Virus record (IMG/VR): IMGVR_UViG_3300020463_000009
Span: 45,064-109,063 of that record
Source: a virus
Reading direction: 5' to 3' (one strand)
DNA length: 64,000 nt
A model generated the notes under the pieces. It was not told the DNA's origin, did not search any database, and saw nothing but the letters and a program-made list of their open reading frames with translations. Shown here piece by piece: positions 28,402 through 46,176 of this stretch; within the stretch, counting starts at the first letter, position 1, and the number at the start of each line of letters is the position of its first letter. The position numbers and the translations under genes were made by a program.

Positions 28402-29700
28402 ATGACTTATTCGTGGAAGAAAGGTATGTCTATTGACGACCAATGGCAAAGTTGGCAAGATAACAATCCAATAGATAAATTACCTGATATAGATACAGAT
28501 ACTTTAAAAGAGGCAGTAATAAAAGATTTATCTTATGTGTCTGCTATGGATGTAAAAGAATATACACTATATCAAAAATGGTGTGAAGTACACGACAAAT
28601 ATCCTACTGAAGAAGTCAATAGTTTCTTTGACGATAAACCAGCATTAAAAAATCCTGACCAAGGGGCGCTCCTTGCTGAAATCAAAAACAACTTTTGGTT
28701 ACCAGAAAACCAAGAAGAATACCTTGATTTAGAACCTGAATTATTATGGACAGATGGTGATGATATTAAATCTATAACAGGTAGTAAAATGCCTGCTATA
28801 TGGAATGGTATGAGAACGTTCTTATCTACTATGAAAAACAATAGTAATATTGGTAGAAATTTAAACTTTTTAATCAGAGATAAAAAATCAAAAAAATTAC
28901 TTGGTGTTACCTGTATGTCTAGTGATTTCCTAGACCTTACACCTAGAGATAATTATATTGGTTGGGAAAGAGTTGCAAAAACTCAAAGAATGATTAATCA
29001 TACTTGTATCGGGTCTACCATTGTACCAATTCAGCCTTTAGGGTATAACCTGGTAGGTGGCAAACTATTGGCACTTTTATGCCTATCTGATACGGTTGAG
29101 AAGACCTGGGAATACCAATACAAGGATAAACTAGTAGGGGTAACCACAACAAGTCTATATGGAAAAACCAAAGAAATACCATTATCACAATACGATAGAT
29201 TAAAATACTGGAAGAAAATGGGTTGGACTGCTGGTAGTGTATCTTATGAGCCATTATTACCAACTAGAAAAATGATACAACAATGGTTAATGAAGAATCA
29301 CACATACAAATACTTTGAATGGTATGTAGCAAAGAAAGACACAGGACAACCACATAAAAGAGACCATAGAAATAGAAGTCATACCTTTACATACAATCAA
29401 TTAGGTATAGATAAGAAACTAATTAAGTCTGAACACGCTAGAGGTATCTATTTTGGTGAATTATATAACAATACTAAAGAATTTTTAAGAGAAGAAATCA
29501 AGGCAGACCAATTAGAAAGAAAATTTGATAATTCAGTAGAGGCCTTGACAGATATATGGAAGAACAAGTATGCTAAAAAGCGATTAGCCAGTTTAACTAA
29601 ACAGAATAGAATATCTAAAGAAACCCATTTTTATGATGACATTATCTATATGAATTGGGAAGATACTAAAAGTAAATATTTACCACAAGTAGGGAGATAA
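28402..29700 (+). CDS. DUF4338/DruA-family protein (copy 1)
   Basis: GRNLNFLIRD..LLG, RDNYIGW, IVPIQPLGYNLVGGKLLALL, TTTSLYG..SQYDRL. Confidence 0.8.
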   Translation: MTYSWKKGMSIDDQWQSWQDNNPIDKLPDIDTDTLKEAVIKDLSYVSAMDVKEYTLYQKWCEVHDKYPTEEVNSFFDDKPALKNPDQGALLAEIKNNFWLPENQEEYLDLEPELLWTDGDDIKSITGSKMPAIWNGMRTFLSTMKNNSNIGRNLNFLIRDKKSKKLLGVTCMSSDFLDLTPRDNYIGWERVAKTQRMINHTCIGSTIVPIQPLGYNLVGGKLLALLCLSDTVEKTWEYQYKDKLVGVTTTSLYGKTKEIPLSQYDRLKYWKKMGWTAGSVSYEPLLPTRKMIQQWLMKNHTYKYFEWYVAKKDTGQPHKRDHRNRSHTFTYNQLGIDKKLIKSEHARGIYFGELYNNTKEFLREEIKADQLERKFDNSVEALTDIWKNKYAKKRLASLTKQNRISKETHFYDDIIYMNWEDTKSKYLPQVGR

Positions 29701-29703
29701 CCA

Positions 29704-30096
29704 ATGGTAGGACAACTAGAAAAAGAATTTGGCACTCAAACTAATGAAAGTCATAAATACAAAAGAGTAAGCGACCTTGATATGTACCAACAGGTCGCAA
29801 AACAAACGGCAATATATCCGAGAGAACAGGCCATTATCTATCCAACATTAGGATTGACCGGTGAAGCAGGTGAAGTAGCCAACAAGGTCAAGAAAATAAT
29901 AAGAGATGGAACAGATAAGACTAGTGAGGATAATGTTCAAAAGATATCCGCTGAAATTGGCGATTGCCTTTGGTATATCGCTGTATTGGCTGATGATATT
30001 GGCGTTAAGCTTTCCGACATTGCTAACAATAATTTAGATAAACTCTATGATAGAGCGAATCGTGGGAAACTCTCGGGTTCCGGCGACAATCGGTAG
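29704..30096 (+). CDS. mazG: MazG-like nucleotide pyrophosphohydrolase
   Basis: LGLTGEAGEVANKVKK, EIGDCLWY, GSGDNR. Confidence 0.92.
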   Translation: MVGQLEKEFGTQTNESHKYKRVSDLDMYQQVAKQTAIYPREQAIIYPTLGLTGEAGEVANKVKKIIRDGTDKTSEDNVQKISAEIGDCLWYIAVLADDIGVKLSDIANNNLDKLYDRANRGKLSGSGDNR

Positions 30097-30173
30097 CGAG
30101 AATCTATCAAAAAAGAACAATACCAGAACAAGATACAAGCGGAAAGCGTTATGGACCGTAGAAAAAATAACGC

Positions 30174-30202
30174 TTGACTTTTATGGAAAAGGCCTGTAGG
30201 AT
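30174..30202 (+). promoter_or_regulatory. sigma70-type early promoter
   Basis: TTGACT-N17-TAGGAT. Confidence 0.65.
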
Positions 30203-30213
30203 GGATCCATAAA

Positions 30214-44238: not shown

Positions 44239-44758
44239 TAAAAAATATGGTGTGATATATGCAGACCCACCTTGGTATTTTAAATCAAGGTCAAAGAAAG
44301 GTGAGGGTAGAAATCCTAATCAACACTATAATTGTATGGAGTTATTAGATATTTGTAATCTACCTGTAAAAAATATATCTGCTGACAATTCAGTTTTATT
44401 AATGTGGGTTATAGACCCTATGTTAGACCTTGCATTTGATGTAATAGAAGCCTGGGGTTTTCAATACAAGACCGTAGGTTTTACTTGGGCGAAAACAAAT
44501 AAAACTAATATGGGTATGTTTACCGGTTTAGGTTACTGGACTAGAGGCAATCCAGAAATGTGTTTACTTGCAACAAAAGGTAAACCAAAAAGAATTAACA
44601 AAGATGTAAAACAATTAATAGTTTCACAAAGAGAAGAACACTCAAAGAAACCTTTATTACATAAAGAAATAGAAAGACTTGTACCTGGCCCCTACATTGA
44701 ATTGTTTGCAAGAAAAAAACCTTATGATAATTGGGATTATTGGGGTAATGAAGTATGA
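44228..44758 (+). CDS. MT-A70-family N6-adenine DNA methyltransferase
   Basis: IYADPPW, LLMW, AWGFQYKT..FTWAK, GYWTRGNPEMCL, HSKKP, IELFAR. Confidence 0.92.
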   Translation: MFPNKKYGVIYADPPWYFKSRSKKGEGRNPNQHYNCMELLDICNLPVKNISADNSVLLMWVIDPMLDLAFDVIEAWGFQYKTVGFTWAKTNKTNMGMFTGLGYWTRGNPEMCLLATKGKPKRINKDVKQLIVSQREEHSKKPLLHKEIERLVPGPYIELFARKKPYDNWDYWGNEV

Positions 44759-45000
44759 AAATTAGATATTATAAAAGAATAGATGGCTGGCGATGGCTAG
44801 GTTTTCTATTAGCAATGATAGGTGCTTTTATATTATCTAATGCAGATGTTCAAACACAATGGATGGGGTGGGCAATTGCCACAATGTCTTGTAGTATTTG
44901 GATTTATATGGGAATAAAAGATAAAGATATACCAAGAGCGCTAATGGAACTTATGTATTTACTATTAGCATTAAGGGCTATATATAATTGGGTTATATGA
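44755..45000 (+). CDS. small 3-TM membrane protein
   Basis: Three hydrophobic segments, PnuC/SemiSWEET-like size. Confidence 0.6.
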   Translation: MKIRYYKRIDGWRWLGFLLAMIGAFILSNADVQTQWMGWAIATMSCSIWIYMGIKDKDIPRALMELMYLLLALRAIYNWVI

Positions 45001-45018
45001 TTATAGATTTATTACTGG

Positions 45019-45047
45019 TTGCCTTATTCATAAAAATGTGTTATATT
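45019..45047 (+). promoter_or_regulatory. sigma70-type promoter of second DUF4338 gene
   Basis: TTGCCT-N17-TATATT with TG extension. Confidence 0.55.
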
Positions 45048-45078
45048 TTACCCTTATTTTTATTATGGAAATGGAATA

Positions 45079-46176
45079 ATGAAGACCCTAACTAAAGAAG
45101 AAGCACTACATTGTGCTAACGTATTTACAAATTATTTTGGCCAGTTTAGTCGTATAGACCAGTATATGCGAGACCAAAAAATGGCACAGATTGAAACTAT
45201 ACCAGCACCTCTTCCTGGTATGGGTTTAGATTCAGATATGTTTGATGAATTTGATATGTCACCAGAGGTTATGGATTTAGAAGTTGTTGAATTAGATAAT
45301 GATACTTGGGACACTTGTATTAATATGATATCAAGTCATAGTAATATGGTTTCTATACCAGGTAAAACATTAAAACTGGCAGTAAAAGAAAAAAATACAG
45401 GTAAGTTTGTAGGTTTTATGAGATTTGGTTCACCTGTAATTAATATGAAACCTAGAAATACTTTATTAGGTAATGTACCTGAACTTACATCATTTAATAA
45501 AACTTCTATTATGGGTTTTGTTATAGTGCCTACACAACCATTTGGTTTTAATTATCTAGGTGGTAAATTGTTAGCCGCCTTATGTTGTTCTCACGAAGTC
45601 AGAGAAAAACTAAACAAAAAATATAATATGAATTTAGTAATGTTTGAGACTACTAGTTTATATGGCAATTCAAAGTCAGCAAGTCAATATGATGGTATGA
45701 AACCTATGTTAAGATATAAAGGCTTAACTGATAGTGATTTTATACCTATGATACACGGCAAACCATTTAAAGATTTACAAAATTATGTTGAAAGTAGAAC
45801 TGGTCATTTAGTACCAGAAAATGCCTCTAGTAGAAAACTTAAATTAACAAATGCAATTATTGGTTTAATTAAAAGGTCAATAGATGGTGATGATTTAAAA
45901 ACTTTTAATACTACAATACTTAATGCTAAAAAATTAACTGAACAAAAAAGATATTATGTATCTAATTATGGTATCGAAAATTATATTGATATAGTAAATG
46001 GTAAAACAGATAAGATTGTTAGAGCACCTAACTATGAAAGATTCTACGATAACGAACTTATAGAATGGTGGCGTAAACTTGCTACTAAAAGATTTTATAA
46101 ATTAAAAGAAGATGGTCGTTTAAGAAATAATTTAGAGATATGGACAAGAGACAGCGAGATAGACATAATAAGATAG
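45079..46176 (+). CDS. DUF4338/DruA-family protein (copy 2)
   Basis: PGKTLKLAVKE..GKFVG, IVPTQPFGFNYLGGKLLAALCCS, FETTSLYG..SQYDG. Confidence 0.78.
   Translation: MKTLTKEEALHCANVFTNYFGQFSRIDQYMRDQKMAQIETIPAPLPGMGLDSDMFDEFDMSPEVMDLEVVELDNDTWDTCINMISSHSNMVSIPGKTLKLAVKEKNTGKFVGFMRFGSPVINMKPRNTLLGNVPELTSFNKTSIMGFVIVPTQPFGFNYLGGKLLAALCCSHEVREKLNKKYNMNLVMFETTSLYGNSKSASQYDGMKPMLRYKGLTDSDFIPMIHGKPFKDLQNYVESRTGHLVPENASSRKLKLTNAIIGLIKRSIDGDDLKTFNTTILNAKKLTEQKRYYVSNYGIENYIDIVNGKTDKIVRAPNYERFYDNELIEWWRKLATKRFYKLKEDGRLRNNLEIWTRDSEIDIIR

What the first reader, a model, noticed from the sequence alone, without database searches (positions are those of the whole stretch)
28402..46176. Candidate Gly-tRNA-dependent DNA hypermodification system: dedicated tRNA-Gly plus two DUF4338 enzymes tied to the replisome
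Seen: two divergent DUF4338/DruA paralogues (28402, 45079), each behind its own sigma70-type promoter, with no other Druantia gene in the window. Copy 2 sits after gp43 with a GNAT-fold ORF and an MT-A70 methylase. A tRNA-Gly that keeps its charging identity but has lost its translation elbow is the first cistron of the gp45-gp44-gp62 operon. Established: phage Mu Mom is a GNAT-fold enzyme that makes N6-carbamoylmethyl-adenine, and I recall that Gly-tRNA(Gly) has been reported as its co-substrate (verify). Staphylococci use non-proteinogenic tRNA-Gly species as glycyl donors. Inference: DUF4338 is Mom/GNAT-like, and the phage supplies a private EF-Tu-avoiding Gly-tRNA to acylate bases in newly replicated DNA against restriction.
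Basis: partly seen in the sequence, partly recalled or inferred. Interest (0 to 1): 0.9.

Follow-up and report, generated by a model that had tools for sequence, protein, structure and literature searches.

The report
Phage DruA enzymes with private tRNA-Gly
A SAR11-type T4-like phage carries an overlooked, oddly built glycine tRNA plus two acyltransferase-fold (DruA family) enzymes whose closest solved structure is phage Mu's Mom. In related phages glycine tRNA genes, and no other tRNA species, sit beside this enzyme gene, which points to an untested system that uses tRNA-bound glycine, perhaps to modify phage DNA.

Summary
The window is the replication module of an uncultured pelagimyophage (about 79% nt identity to Pelagibacter phage Mosig).

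**What is there**
- Both DUF4338/DruA paralogues, the GNAT ORF, the MT-A70 methylase and the tRNA-like gene are real.
- The tRNA (36424-36497) has strong covariation. It keeps the GlyRS identity set (G1-C72, C2-G71, G3-C70, U73, C35, C36) and an encoded CCA.
- Its elbow is altered (A18/G55, non-canonical 54:58), as in staphylococcal non-proteogenic tRNA-Gly. It starts 7 nt after the best promoter in the region.
- Standard finders and the literature miss it.

**What supports a link to DruA**
- Both DruA models are GNAT folds. For copy 1, Mom (8bv8) is rank 1 of 48,161 PDB representatives (Z 9.6, next 8.6). Profile comparison shows no sequence-level relation.
- In 80 loci around DruA2 homologues from related aquatic phages, all 12 ARAGORN tRNAs are tRNA-Gly, and 4 more Gly-like elements include a shrunken one. 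These fall into about 10 different arrangements.

**What argues for caution**
- Some DruA2-bearing cyanophages have only a canonical tRNA-Gly, or none.
- GGU makes up 70% of Gly codons, so a translational role is not excluded.
- Chemistry and target are untested.

This scan has flagged the same system on other DNA (at least 47 genomes).

The parts
28402..29700 (+). DruA/DUF4338 paralogue 1 (432 aa). It has an N-terminal helical region, a GNAT core at about residues 106-376 with a helical insertion at about 278-345, and C-terminal helices.
   Evidence: Pfam PF14236 74.4 bits. AlphaFold2 pLDDT 92. Mom 8bv8 is the top structural match, at Z 9.8 and 9.6.
36388..36416 (+). Sigma-70-type promoter (TTGACA-17-TG-TATATT). 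Its -10 hexamer ends 7 nt before G1 of the tRNA, which predicts a leaderless or 1-nt-leader tRNA 5' end.
   Evidence: Best promoter-like site in 27700-46600 (11 of 12). The same spacing is conserved in about 30 distinct homologous loci.
36424..36497 (+). Atypical tRNA-Gly(ACC), 74 nt with encoded CCA. It has G1-C72, C2-G71, G3-C70, U73, C35 and C36. The D loop is AUAAAAGUA (A18 G19) and the T loop is AGCGUUA (G55 C56).
   Evidence: Rfam RF00005 45.2 bits. Covariation in 10 pairs. 66 IMG/VR loci carry it.
36522..38658 (+). gp45 sliding clamp (36522-37184), gp44 (37199-38143) and gp62 (38230-38658). They lie directly downstream of the tRNA in the same orientation.
   Evidence: Synteny with annotated Mosig and HTVC008M genes. 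The RBS GAGGAG lies 10 nt after the CCA.
41127..43610 (+). gp43 DNA polymerase.
   Evidence: Synteny and identity with Mosig and HTVC008M.
43565..44092 (+). Small GNAT ORF (start codon uncertain). It is present in only some relatives.
   Evidence: Pfam Acetyltransf_1 E 1.7e-4. Found in L026, L086, L087, L105, L117, L119 and L127, but absent in Mosig.
44228..44758 (+). MT-A70 family methyltransferase.
   Evidence: Pfam PF05063 E 4.1e-26. It lies next to DruA2 in most pelagimyophage loci.
45079..46176 (+). DruA/DUF4338 paralogue 2 (365 aa), with a GNAT core at about residues 61-321. It belongs to phrog_19197. In cyanomyophages the orthologue sits between gp44 and gp62.
   Evidence: Pfam 39.6 bits. 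PHROG E 1.7e-146. AlphaFold2 pLDDT 81. GNAT matches, with Mom at Z 8.4 over 184 aligned residues. Cyanophage context.

Best explanation
The phage encodes a glycine-specific tRNA of its own and two DruA-family GNAT transferases that belong together functionally.

Proposed mechanism:
1. The tRNA is transcribed from its own strong promoter with little or no 5' leader. It is released from the gp45 mRNA and charged by the host GlyRS, because all identity elements and the CCA end are kept.
2. Its rebuilt elbow (A18/G55, non-canonical 54:58, weak 51:63 pair) makes it a poor partner for the translation machinery.
3. The Gly-tRNA then serves as co-substrate of the DruA enzymes, which transfer the glycyl group to a target during replication. 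Newly made phage DNA is the most likely target, by analogy with Mom.

What is shown:
- The tRNA is a real, conserved, structured gene with Gly identity.
- Both DruA proteins have the GNAT fold, with a helical insertion between the last strands as in Mom.
- Mom is the closest solved structure for copy 1.
- tRNA-Gly genes, and only those, recur next to DruA2 genes in related phages.

What is inferred:
- That the tRNA is charged.
- That it is partly or fully kept out of translation.
- That DruA uses it as a donor rather than acting on it.
- That the acceptor is DNA.
For: tRNA
- Rfam tRNA 45.2 bits.
- 100% pairing in three stems, with 10 doubly changed pairs.
- G1C2G3, C70-72, U73, CCA and C35C36 are invariant in more than 40 distinct sequences, while position 34 varies (A, U or G) in phages with the same Gly codon usage.
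- G55 and A18 occur as in S. aureus non-proteogenic tRNA-Gly, which have 'TGC/TGT instead of TTC' (PMC7826273).
- The 51:63 pair is never G-C.
- The promoter-to-G1 spacing is conserved.

Enzymes
- GNAT fold with high-confidence models.
- Mom 8bv8 is rank 1 of 48,161 representatives for copy 1 (Z 9.6, next 8.6). It gives the longest alignment in both re-rankings (185 and 184 residues, against about 145 for other GNATs).
- Both families carry an R-G-[VI]-Y-[FL] motif after the helical insertion (weak).
- A GenBank record annotates the cyanophage orthologue as 'methylcarbamoylase mom'.
- Mom uses Gly-tRNAGly (PMC13219725).

Link between tRNA and enzyme
- In 80 loci around DruA2 homologues (394 kb), ARAGORN finds 12 tRNAs and all are tRNA-Gly. 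Four more Gly-like elements include a 69-nt form with a 5-nt 'anticodon' loop.
- There are about 10 different arrangements, from 8 nt downstream to 17 nt upstream of DruA2.
- In L010/L059 the odd tRNA follows DruA2 by 47-65 nt.
- Melnitz, a complete related genome without DruA, lacks the odd tRNA-Gly.

Context
- DruA2 is always inside the replication module: after gp43 next to MT-A70, or between gp44 and gp62.
Against: - No sequence-level homology between DruA and Mom (hhalign probability 0.1%). The structural lead of Mom is only about 1 Z unit, and for copy 2 Mom is tied with SpeG-type GNATs.
- DruA keeps a glycine-rich Q-x-x-G-x-N-x-x-G-G-K loop at the β4-α3 junction. Acetyl-CoA GNATs bind pyrophosphate at this position, so an acyl-CoA donor is not excluded.
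- In this window the tRNA is 6.7 kb from DruA1 and 8.6 kb from DruA2.
- DruA2-bearing cyanophages carry a canonical tRNA-Gly(UCC) in tRNA arrays, or none.
- 80 loci of distant DruA1-like genes show no Gly enrichment (2 of 14 tRNAs).
- ACC matches GGU, which is 70.6% of the phage's Gly codons. This fits an ordinary decoding role.
- Phage tmRNA genes of HTVC008M and Melnitz have similar xGCAxUA T loops, so this loop may be tolerated by the ribosome.
- SAR11 is reported to rarely carry restriction-modification systems (PMC7029224).
Confidence: 0.4

Rival explanations
1. The two things are unrelated. The tRNA is a translational tRNA-Gly that boosts reading of GGU (or of all GGN), and its odd elbow is a lineage quirk. 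The DruA proteins are ordinary acyl-CoA-dependent GNATs acting on a protein, polyamine or nucleotide during infection.
For: - GGU is 70.6% of Gly codons, and ACC pairs with it perfectly.
- Phage tRNAs are usually translational.
- The anticodon loop is canonical (U33, A37) and the anticodon stem is maintained by covariation.
- Phage tmRNAs carry a similar T loop.
- DruA has a glycine-rich β4-α3 loop like CoA-binding GNATs.
- SpeG is the top hit for copy 2, and speD is a neighbour of DruA2 in some cyanophages.
- The phage carries other translation genes: S21, peptide deformylase and a RimK-like protein.
Against: - Sister clades with the same codon usage carry UCC or GCC in the same scaffold.
- A shrunken 69-nt relative with a 5-nt loop cannot decode, yet it keeps the acceptor identity and the CCA.
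- 12 of 12 tRNAs beside DruA2 homologues are Gly. Codon-usage supplementation does not explain this.
- G55, A18 and the weak 51:63 pair are conserved, not drifting.
Confidence: 0.3
2. DruA acts on Gly-tRNA rather than with it, or uses it for a target other than DNA.
- In a TacT-like mode it would acylate the glycyl amine of Gly-tRNAGly.
- In a Fem or L/F-transferase-like mode it would glycylate a protein, nucleotide or cell-envelope precursor.
In either case the private tRNA is the dedicated substrate or a decoy.
For: - TacT is a GNAT whose substrate is Gly-tRNAGly, and Fem enzymes use Gly-tRNA (PMC13219725 section 13; PMC7826273).
- TacT, TmcA and FemA appear among the structural matches.
- The Gly-specific gene linkage says nothing about the acceptor.
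Against: - Mom, not TacT or FemA, is the closest structure (FemA Z 7.6, Mom Z 9.6).
- DruA has a single GNAT domain, unlike the tandem GNAT domains of Fem enzymes.
- The position in the replication module, next to a DNA methylase, favours DNA as the target.
Confidence: 0.15
3. The tRNA-like element is mainly a cis-acting 5' element of the downstream mRNA (a stabiliser, processing signal or translational control element) and is not used as an amino-acid carrier.
For: It always lies at the 5' end of an mRNA, 10-25 nt before the next RBS and directly after a promoter. A metatranscriptome contig bridges the tRNA 3' part and gp45, but this may be DNA carry-over.
Against: A cis element has no need for the invariant U73-CCA, the full GlyRS identity set and C35C36. 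The downstream gene differs between clades (gp45, S21, small ORFs).
Confidence: 0.07

Closest known systems
Mom of bacteriophage Mu (Pfam PF25680, PDB 8bv8), the Gly-tRNAGly-dependent N6-adenine modifier of dsDNA
   Same: Both have a single GNAT domain with a helical insertion before the last strand. Mom is the best structural match for DruA1 (Z 9.6-9.8) and gives the longest alignment for DruA2. Both are phage-encoded. Glycine tRNA is implicated in both cases: shown by biochemistry for Mom, and suggested here by Gly-specific gene linkage.
   Different: There is no detectable sequence homology (hhalign 0.1%, and no PF25680 hit). The Mom residues R111, S124, D149 and R151 could not be mapped. 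DruA is larger, with extra N- and C-terminal helical regions, and has a Gly-rich β4-α3 loop that Mom lacks. Mom uses host tRNAs and is a late gene of a temperate phage. Here the genes lie in the replication module of T4-like lytic phages, and a private tRNA is supplied.
Non-proteogenic tRNA-Gly (NP1-NP3) of Staphylococcus aureus and S. epidermidis, used by FmhB, FemA and FemB
   Same: Both are extra tRNA-Gly species that keep GlyRS identity, have G55 instead of U55 (TGC/TGT in staphylococci, xGC here), lack G18 and have a weak 51:63 T-stem pair. In both, the proposed role is glycyl donor outside the ribosome.
   Different: The staphylococcal tRNAs are cellular and feed peptidoglycan synthesis through tandem-GNAT Fem enzymes. 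Here the 49:65 pair is mostly G-C or C-G rather than A-U, the anticodon can be ACC, and 54:58 is also non-canonical. EF-Tu and ribosome exclusion is untested here.
DruA of type I Druantia (Pfam PF14236 / DUF4338)
   Same: Both proteins here are members of the family by Pfam and PADLOC scores above the cut-off.
   Different: No DruB-E genes are present, and the genes are in a phage replication module. This is therefore not a Druantia defence system. In the literature held here I found nothing on the function of DruA itself in Druantia.
TacT/AtaT-type GNAT toxins
   Same: They are GNAT enzymes that recognise aminoacyl-tRNA. TacT takes Gly-tRNAGly.
   Different: They acetylate the aminoacyl amine using acetyl-CoA, are small toxins with antitoxins, and are weaker structural matches here.

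Membership tests
DruA / DUF4338 (PF14236) | Profile match above the curated cut-off | tested here: met
   74.4 and 39.6 bits against a cut-off of 27. PADLOC PDLC00002 E 3.9e-19 and 3.8e-9.
Druantia type I defence system | DruA together with DruB, DruC, DruD and the large DruE helicase | tested here: not met
   No ORF is longer than 827 aa. PADLOC on the 10 largest other ORFs gives no Dru hits. All neighbours are T4-like replication genes.
GNAT superfamily | GNAT α/β fold | tested here: met
   For both models the structural matches are almost all GNATs. In the re-ranked searches 97 and 52 chains reach Z 8 or more. The literature already calls DUF4338 a GNAT (PMC10853773).
Mom family (PF25680) | Sequence or profile membership | tested here: not met
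   The Pfam scan returns only DruA. hhalign of the DruA profile against the Mom profile gives probability 0.1%, and against single Mom 1.4% over 17 columns.
Mom family (PF25680) | Single GNAT domain with an HTH-like helical insertion that is essential for activity | tested here: inconclusive
   DruA1 has helices at 286-341 between strands 271-275 and 348-353. DruA2 has helices at 228-286. Mom aligns over 165-185 residues, against about 145 for plain GNATs. No residue-level superposition was available.
Mom family (PF25680) | Catalytic residues R111, S124, D149 and R151 | not testable with these tools
   A structure-based residue alignment could not be exported. By position in the secondary structure, the invariant DruA residues K221, T249-S251 and Y264 lie near the Mom sites. 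This is inference only.
Mom family (PF25680) | Gly-tRNAGly as co-substrate and dsDNA adenine as acceptor | not testable with these tools
   Only indirect evidence: Gly-specific tRNA linkage to DruA2 and the replication-module context.
Canonical elongator tRNA-Gly | Cloverleaf with the GlyRS identity set (G1-C72, C2-G71, G3-C70, U73, C35, C36) | tested here: met
   The identity set itself is taken from established knowledge of bacterial GlyRS.
Canonical elongator tRNA-Gly | G18-G19 in the D loop and T54-Ψ55-C56...A58 in the T loop | tested here: not met
   The D loop is AUAAAAGUA. The T loop is AGCGUUA, GGCAGUA or UGCGUUA. ARAGORN misses the gene in the window, and tRNAscan-SE lists 0 tRNAs for HTVC008M (PMC7029224).
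Non-proteogenic tRNA-Gly (staphylococcal type) | G55 in place of U55, and loss of G18 | tested here: met
   xGC T loop and A18 in all homologues. Compared with the 'TGC or TGT instead of TTC' of PMC7826273.
Non-proteogenic tRNA-Gly (staphylococcal type) | Weak EF-Tu T-stem combination (A49-U65, U50-A64, A51-U63), with no EF-Tu or ribosome binding | tested here: inconclusive
   The 51:63 pair is A-U, U-A or G-U in 19 of 19 sequences, but 49:65 is mostly G-C or C-G. Binding cannot be tested here.

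The most novel reading that the evidence does not exclude
The DruA/DUF4338 family as a whole would be a second family of aminoacyl-tRNA-dependent transferases that glycylate nucleic acid. This would include the phage copies, the giant-virus copies and the first gene of type I Druantia. 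Abundant marine T4-like phages would supply it with a private, partly or fully non-decoding tRNA-Gly made without RNase P processing. That would give DruA a biochemical function, reveal a new DNA hypermodification in some of the ocean's most abundant phages, and add a second natural class of non-proteogenic tRNA.
Probability: 0.25. Interest if true: 0.9.

Novelty: new variant of a known kind. Interest (0 to 1): 0.72.

Why it matters
- Mom was shown only in 2023-2026 to use charged tRNA to modify DNA, and it is so far the only such enzyme family.
- In the literature held here, dedicated non-ribosomal tRNA-Gly species have so far been detected only in staphylococci (S. aureus and S. epidermidis; PMC7826273).
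- A Mom-shaped enzyme family that travels with its own glycine tRNA in SAR11- and cyanobacteria-type myophages would extend both ideas to globally abundant viruses.
- It would give a testable function to DruA, whose role in Druantia defence I found nothing on in the literature held here.
- It would explain a conserved 'hypothetical' core gene in the replication module of marine T4-like phages.
- Standard tRNA finders miss a conserved phage tRNA: HTVC008M is listed with 0 tRNAs, and Mosig annotates a bogus CDS over it.

Tried and rejected
- **Sequence searches against PDB chains.** The two proteins and the DruA1 profile gave no meaningful hits.
- **hhalign against the Mom profile.** Neither the DruA profile nor the small GNAT ORF showed any signal.
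- **NCBIfam.** No hits.
- **PHROGs.** Only phrog_19197, of unknown function.
- **Foldseek against PDB alone.** Only weak E-values (0.05 or worse), though nearly all hits were GNATs.
- **Sigma-70 promoters in front of the DruA genes.** Not above chance.
- **Distant DruA1-like genes.** In 80 loci (1.26 Mb) there was no Gly enrichment and no adjacent mini-tRNA. One odd tRNA-like element with an ACA 3' end lay 3.4 kb away in L239.
- **Distant DruA2 contigs L156, L159, L160, L162 and L110.** They are 13-54% complete and show only a sub-threshold tRNA-like hit, so they are uninformative.
- **Codon usage as an explanation for ACC versus UCC.** Gly codon usage is the same in both clades.
- **Marine metatranscriptomes.** Only Logan contigs of relatives were available, with small word shares. 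One contig includes the promoter and one bridges the tRNA and gp45, and DNA carry-over cannot be excluded. This gives no evidence on transcript ends.
- **Complex prediction.** Not used, because no protein-protein binding is claimed.

Full report
**Identity of the window.** The window is G000:C1:45064-109063 of a 109-kb IMG/VR viral contig that is 76% complete. The stretch 36100-44000 is 79% identical at nucleotide level to Pelagibacter phage Mosig EXVC030M and 68% to HTVC008M. Gene order matches their replication modules: gp46/47, peptide deformylase, DruA1, MazG, peptidase, CobS, S21, hsp20, gp45, gp44, gp62, RegA, a RimK-like ATP-grasp protein, gp43, (GNAT), MT-A70, DruA2, UvsX.

**The two DruA genes.**
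- ORF 28402-29700 (432 aa) and ORF 45079-46176 (365 aa) both pass the Pfam DruA cut-off (74.4 and 39.6 bits against 27) and match the PADLOC DruA models.
- They are 31% identical over 162 residues, and both fall in phrog_19197, which has unknown function.
- No other Druantia component is present.
- The claim that each copy has its own sigma-70 promoter is not supported. Promoter-like hits in the region are at chance level, and none of the good ones precedes a DruA gene.

**The tRNA.**
- ARAGORN and the gathering-threshold Rfam run found nothing. A local Rfam search gives tRNA at 36424-36494 with 45.2 bits, against a gathering score of 29. The fold has z = -3.2.
- A pattern scan of IMG/VR found 66 loci with the same element, comprising 31 distinct sequences.
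- On 19 representatives, the acceptor, anticodon and T stems pair in 100% of cells. Ten pairs change on both sides, far above the shuffled and slid controls.
- G1-G4, C69-C72, U73, CCA, C35, C36, one G in the D loop, and G55-C56 are invariant. By established knowledge, G1-C72, C2-G71, G3-C70, U73, C35 and C36 are the bacterial GlyRS identity set.
- The D loop has A18-G19 instead of G18-G19. The T loop is AGCGUUA, GGCAGUA or UGCGUUA instead of UUCRANY. The elbow is therefore rebuilt, not lost: a G19:C56 pair is possible, 18:55 is A:G, and 54:58 is non-canonical.
- The covariance model R1 found sister forms with anticodon UCC (L100, L120, L123, L127, L143) and GCC (L101) in the same scaffold. 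Gly codon usage is the same in all clades, at about 70% GGU.
- The 51:63 pair is A-U, U-A or G-U in all 19 sequences.
- These features parallel the staphylococcal non-proteogenic tRNA-Gly, which have TGC/TGT instead of TTC, an altered D loop and weak T-stem pairs (PMC7826273).
- The literature lists HTVC008M with 0 tRNAs (PMC7029224). The HTVC008M record has no tRNA feature there, and Mosig annotates a 96-nt 'hypothetical protein' over the gene.

**Transcription context of the tRNA.**
- The best promoter-like site of the 19-kb region (TTGACA-17-TG-TATATT, 36388-36416) ends 7 nt before G1. This arrangement is conserved in about 30 distinct loci.
- It predicts a tRNA 5' end made by transcription initiation, without the need for RNase P. 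This is inference.
- The CCA is followed within 10-25 nt by the RBS of the next gene.
- That gene is gp45 here and in Mosig. It is S21 in the HTVC008M clade, where a terminator-like hairpin precedes the tRNA, and a small ORF in another clade.

**Fold of the DruA proteins.**
- A search of 1.84 billion representative proteins gave 946 relatives of DruA1. A 67-sequence alignment gave an AlphaFold2 model with pLDDT 92.3.
- Foldseek against PDB returned only weak hits, almost all of them GNATs, including Mom, TacT and TmcA.
- Re-ranking with VIA-align put Mom (8bv8_A) first: Z 9.8, rmsd 4.1 Å, 185 of 222 residues aligned, against Z 9.0 and about 145 residues for SpeG.
- The Foldseek-independent search of 48,161 PDB representatives again put Mom first (Z 9.6, 165 residues; next Z 8.6; FemA Z 7.6).
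- DruA2 (35-sequence alignment, pLDDT 80.8) is also a GNAT. SpeG gives Z 8.8. Mom gives Z 8.4 but the longest alignment, 184 residues.
- Both models have a helical insertion between the last strands, where Mom has its essential HTH-like insertion (PMC13219725).
- The DruA1-family conserved residues are G168, R182, Q211-P-x-G214, G219-G220-K221, T249-T250-S251, Y264, R347-G348 and W386. The DruA2 family keeps the same pattern.
- At sequence level no relation to Mom is detectable.
- That DUF4338 is a GNAT domain was already stated in PMC10853773. No paper in the library links DruA with Mom or with tRNA.

**Is the tRNA linked to DruA?**
- Within pelagimyophages, all loci that reach far enough carry the odd tRNA together with DruA1 and DruA2. 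These phages are close relatives, so this carries little weight.
- Melnitz is a complete related genome. It has no DruA and no odd tRNA-Gly; the best R1 hits are tRNA-Trp and a tmRNA.
- About 25 Synechococcus phages carry DruA2 between gp44 and gp62. Of five tested, four have a canonical tRNA-Gly(UCC) and S-T4 has none.
- Distant DruA1-like genes show no association (2 Gly among 14 tRNAs in 1.26 Mb).
- Earlier notes of this scan reported mini tRNA-Gly genes beside DruA genes, so I tested that lead. I fetched 80 IMG/VR loci around homologues of the L010-type DruA2, with ±2.5 kb of flank (394 kb in total).
- ARAGORN found 12 tRNAs there, and all 12 are tRNA-Gly (UCC or ACC).
- An acceptor-stem scan added four Gly-like elements that ARAGORN misses. 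One is a 69-nt form whose 'anticodon' loop has only 5 nt.
- The positions fall into about ten arrangements: 8, 22, 47, 76, 374, 545 and about 1100-1260 nt downstream, and 17 and about 600 nt upstream of DruA2. All elements keep G1C2G3/C70-72, U73 and CCA, and most have their own promoter.
- If the background Gly share were 2 of 14, even five independent events would have a probability near 5e-5. This is my own rough estimate and is not phylogenetically corrected.

**Reading.**
- The Gly-specific linkage, the Mom-like architecture, the staphylococcal-type tRNA features and the shrunken non-decoding relatives together make a functional pair of DruA and Gly-tRNA the best single explanation. I put it at about 0.4.
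- DNA as the acceptor rests on three things: the analogy to Mom, the conserved place in the replication module, and the neighbouring MT-A70 methylase. It is the weakest step.
- The main rival (about 0.3) is an ordinary GGU-decoding tRNA plus unrelated acyl-CoA GNATs. It is supported by codon usage, by the Gly-rich β4-α3 loop, and by the similar T loop in phage tmRNAs.
- A TacT-like or Fem-like mode is also open.

**Limits.**
- No residue-level superposition was available.
- No complete-genome, phylogeny-corrected co-occurrence test was done.
- The metatranscriptome contigs were uninformative.
- The same system has been flagged by this scan on other DNA, in at least 47 genomes. Those notes were used as leads only.

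Noticed in passing
L170:1495-1947 (Melnitz) and L171:1463-1804 (HTVC008M): Both phages encode permuted tmRNA genes whose tRNA-like domain has a T loop of the same unusual type (GGCAGUA or UGCAAUA) as the odd tRNA-Gly. The window itself showed no tmRNA.
   Followed up: partly
BFVD hits to model m17b63f45edce: DruA-like proteins occur in giant viruses (Faunusvirus, Yasminevirus, Dasosvirus; Foldseek E 7e-20 to 2e-9). Some are fused into proteins of more than 1100 aa.
   Followed up: no
window 39073-40467: A 464-aa ATP-grasp ORF between regA and gp43 matches phrog_2599, 'ribosomal protein S6 glutaminyl transferase' (RimK-like). With S21 (33995-34204) and peptide deformylase (27783-28370), it forms a set of translation-related genes.
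   Followed up: no
L002:9998-10093 (Mosig) and L003:10010-10083 (HTVC008M): The public records miss the tRNA. Mosig annotates a 31-aa 'hypothetical protein' (Mosig_000011) over it, and HTVC008M has no feature there.
   Followed up: yes
L075:5995-7116 (Synechococcus phage S-SCSM2R): The cyanophage orthologue of DruA2 is annotated 'methylcarbamoylase mom' in GenBank and sits between the gp44 and gp62 clamp-loader genes. In S-SM2 and S-T4, speD lies nearby.
   Followed up: partly
L239:4868-4940: A tRNA-like element has the same GGCAGUA T loop but an ACA instead of a CCA 3' end. It lies next to tRNA-Ala and 3.4 kb upstream of a distant DruA1-like gene.
   Followed up: no
window 46441-46469: A second near-consensus promoter (TTGACA-17-TATAGT, 11 of 12) lies upstream of uvsX (46522).
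   Followed up: no
L003:9965-10009 and the HTVC008M-type loci L011, L031, L055, L074: In the HTVC008M clade the tRNA is preceded by a conserved terminator-like hairpin (CCGTGGG...CCCACGG, then TGTTTT) instead of a promoter, and it is followed by the S21 gene.
   Followed up: partly
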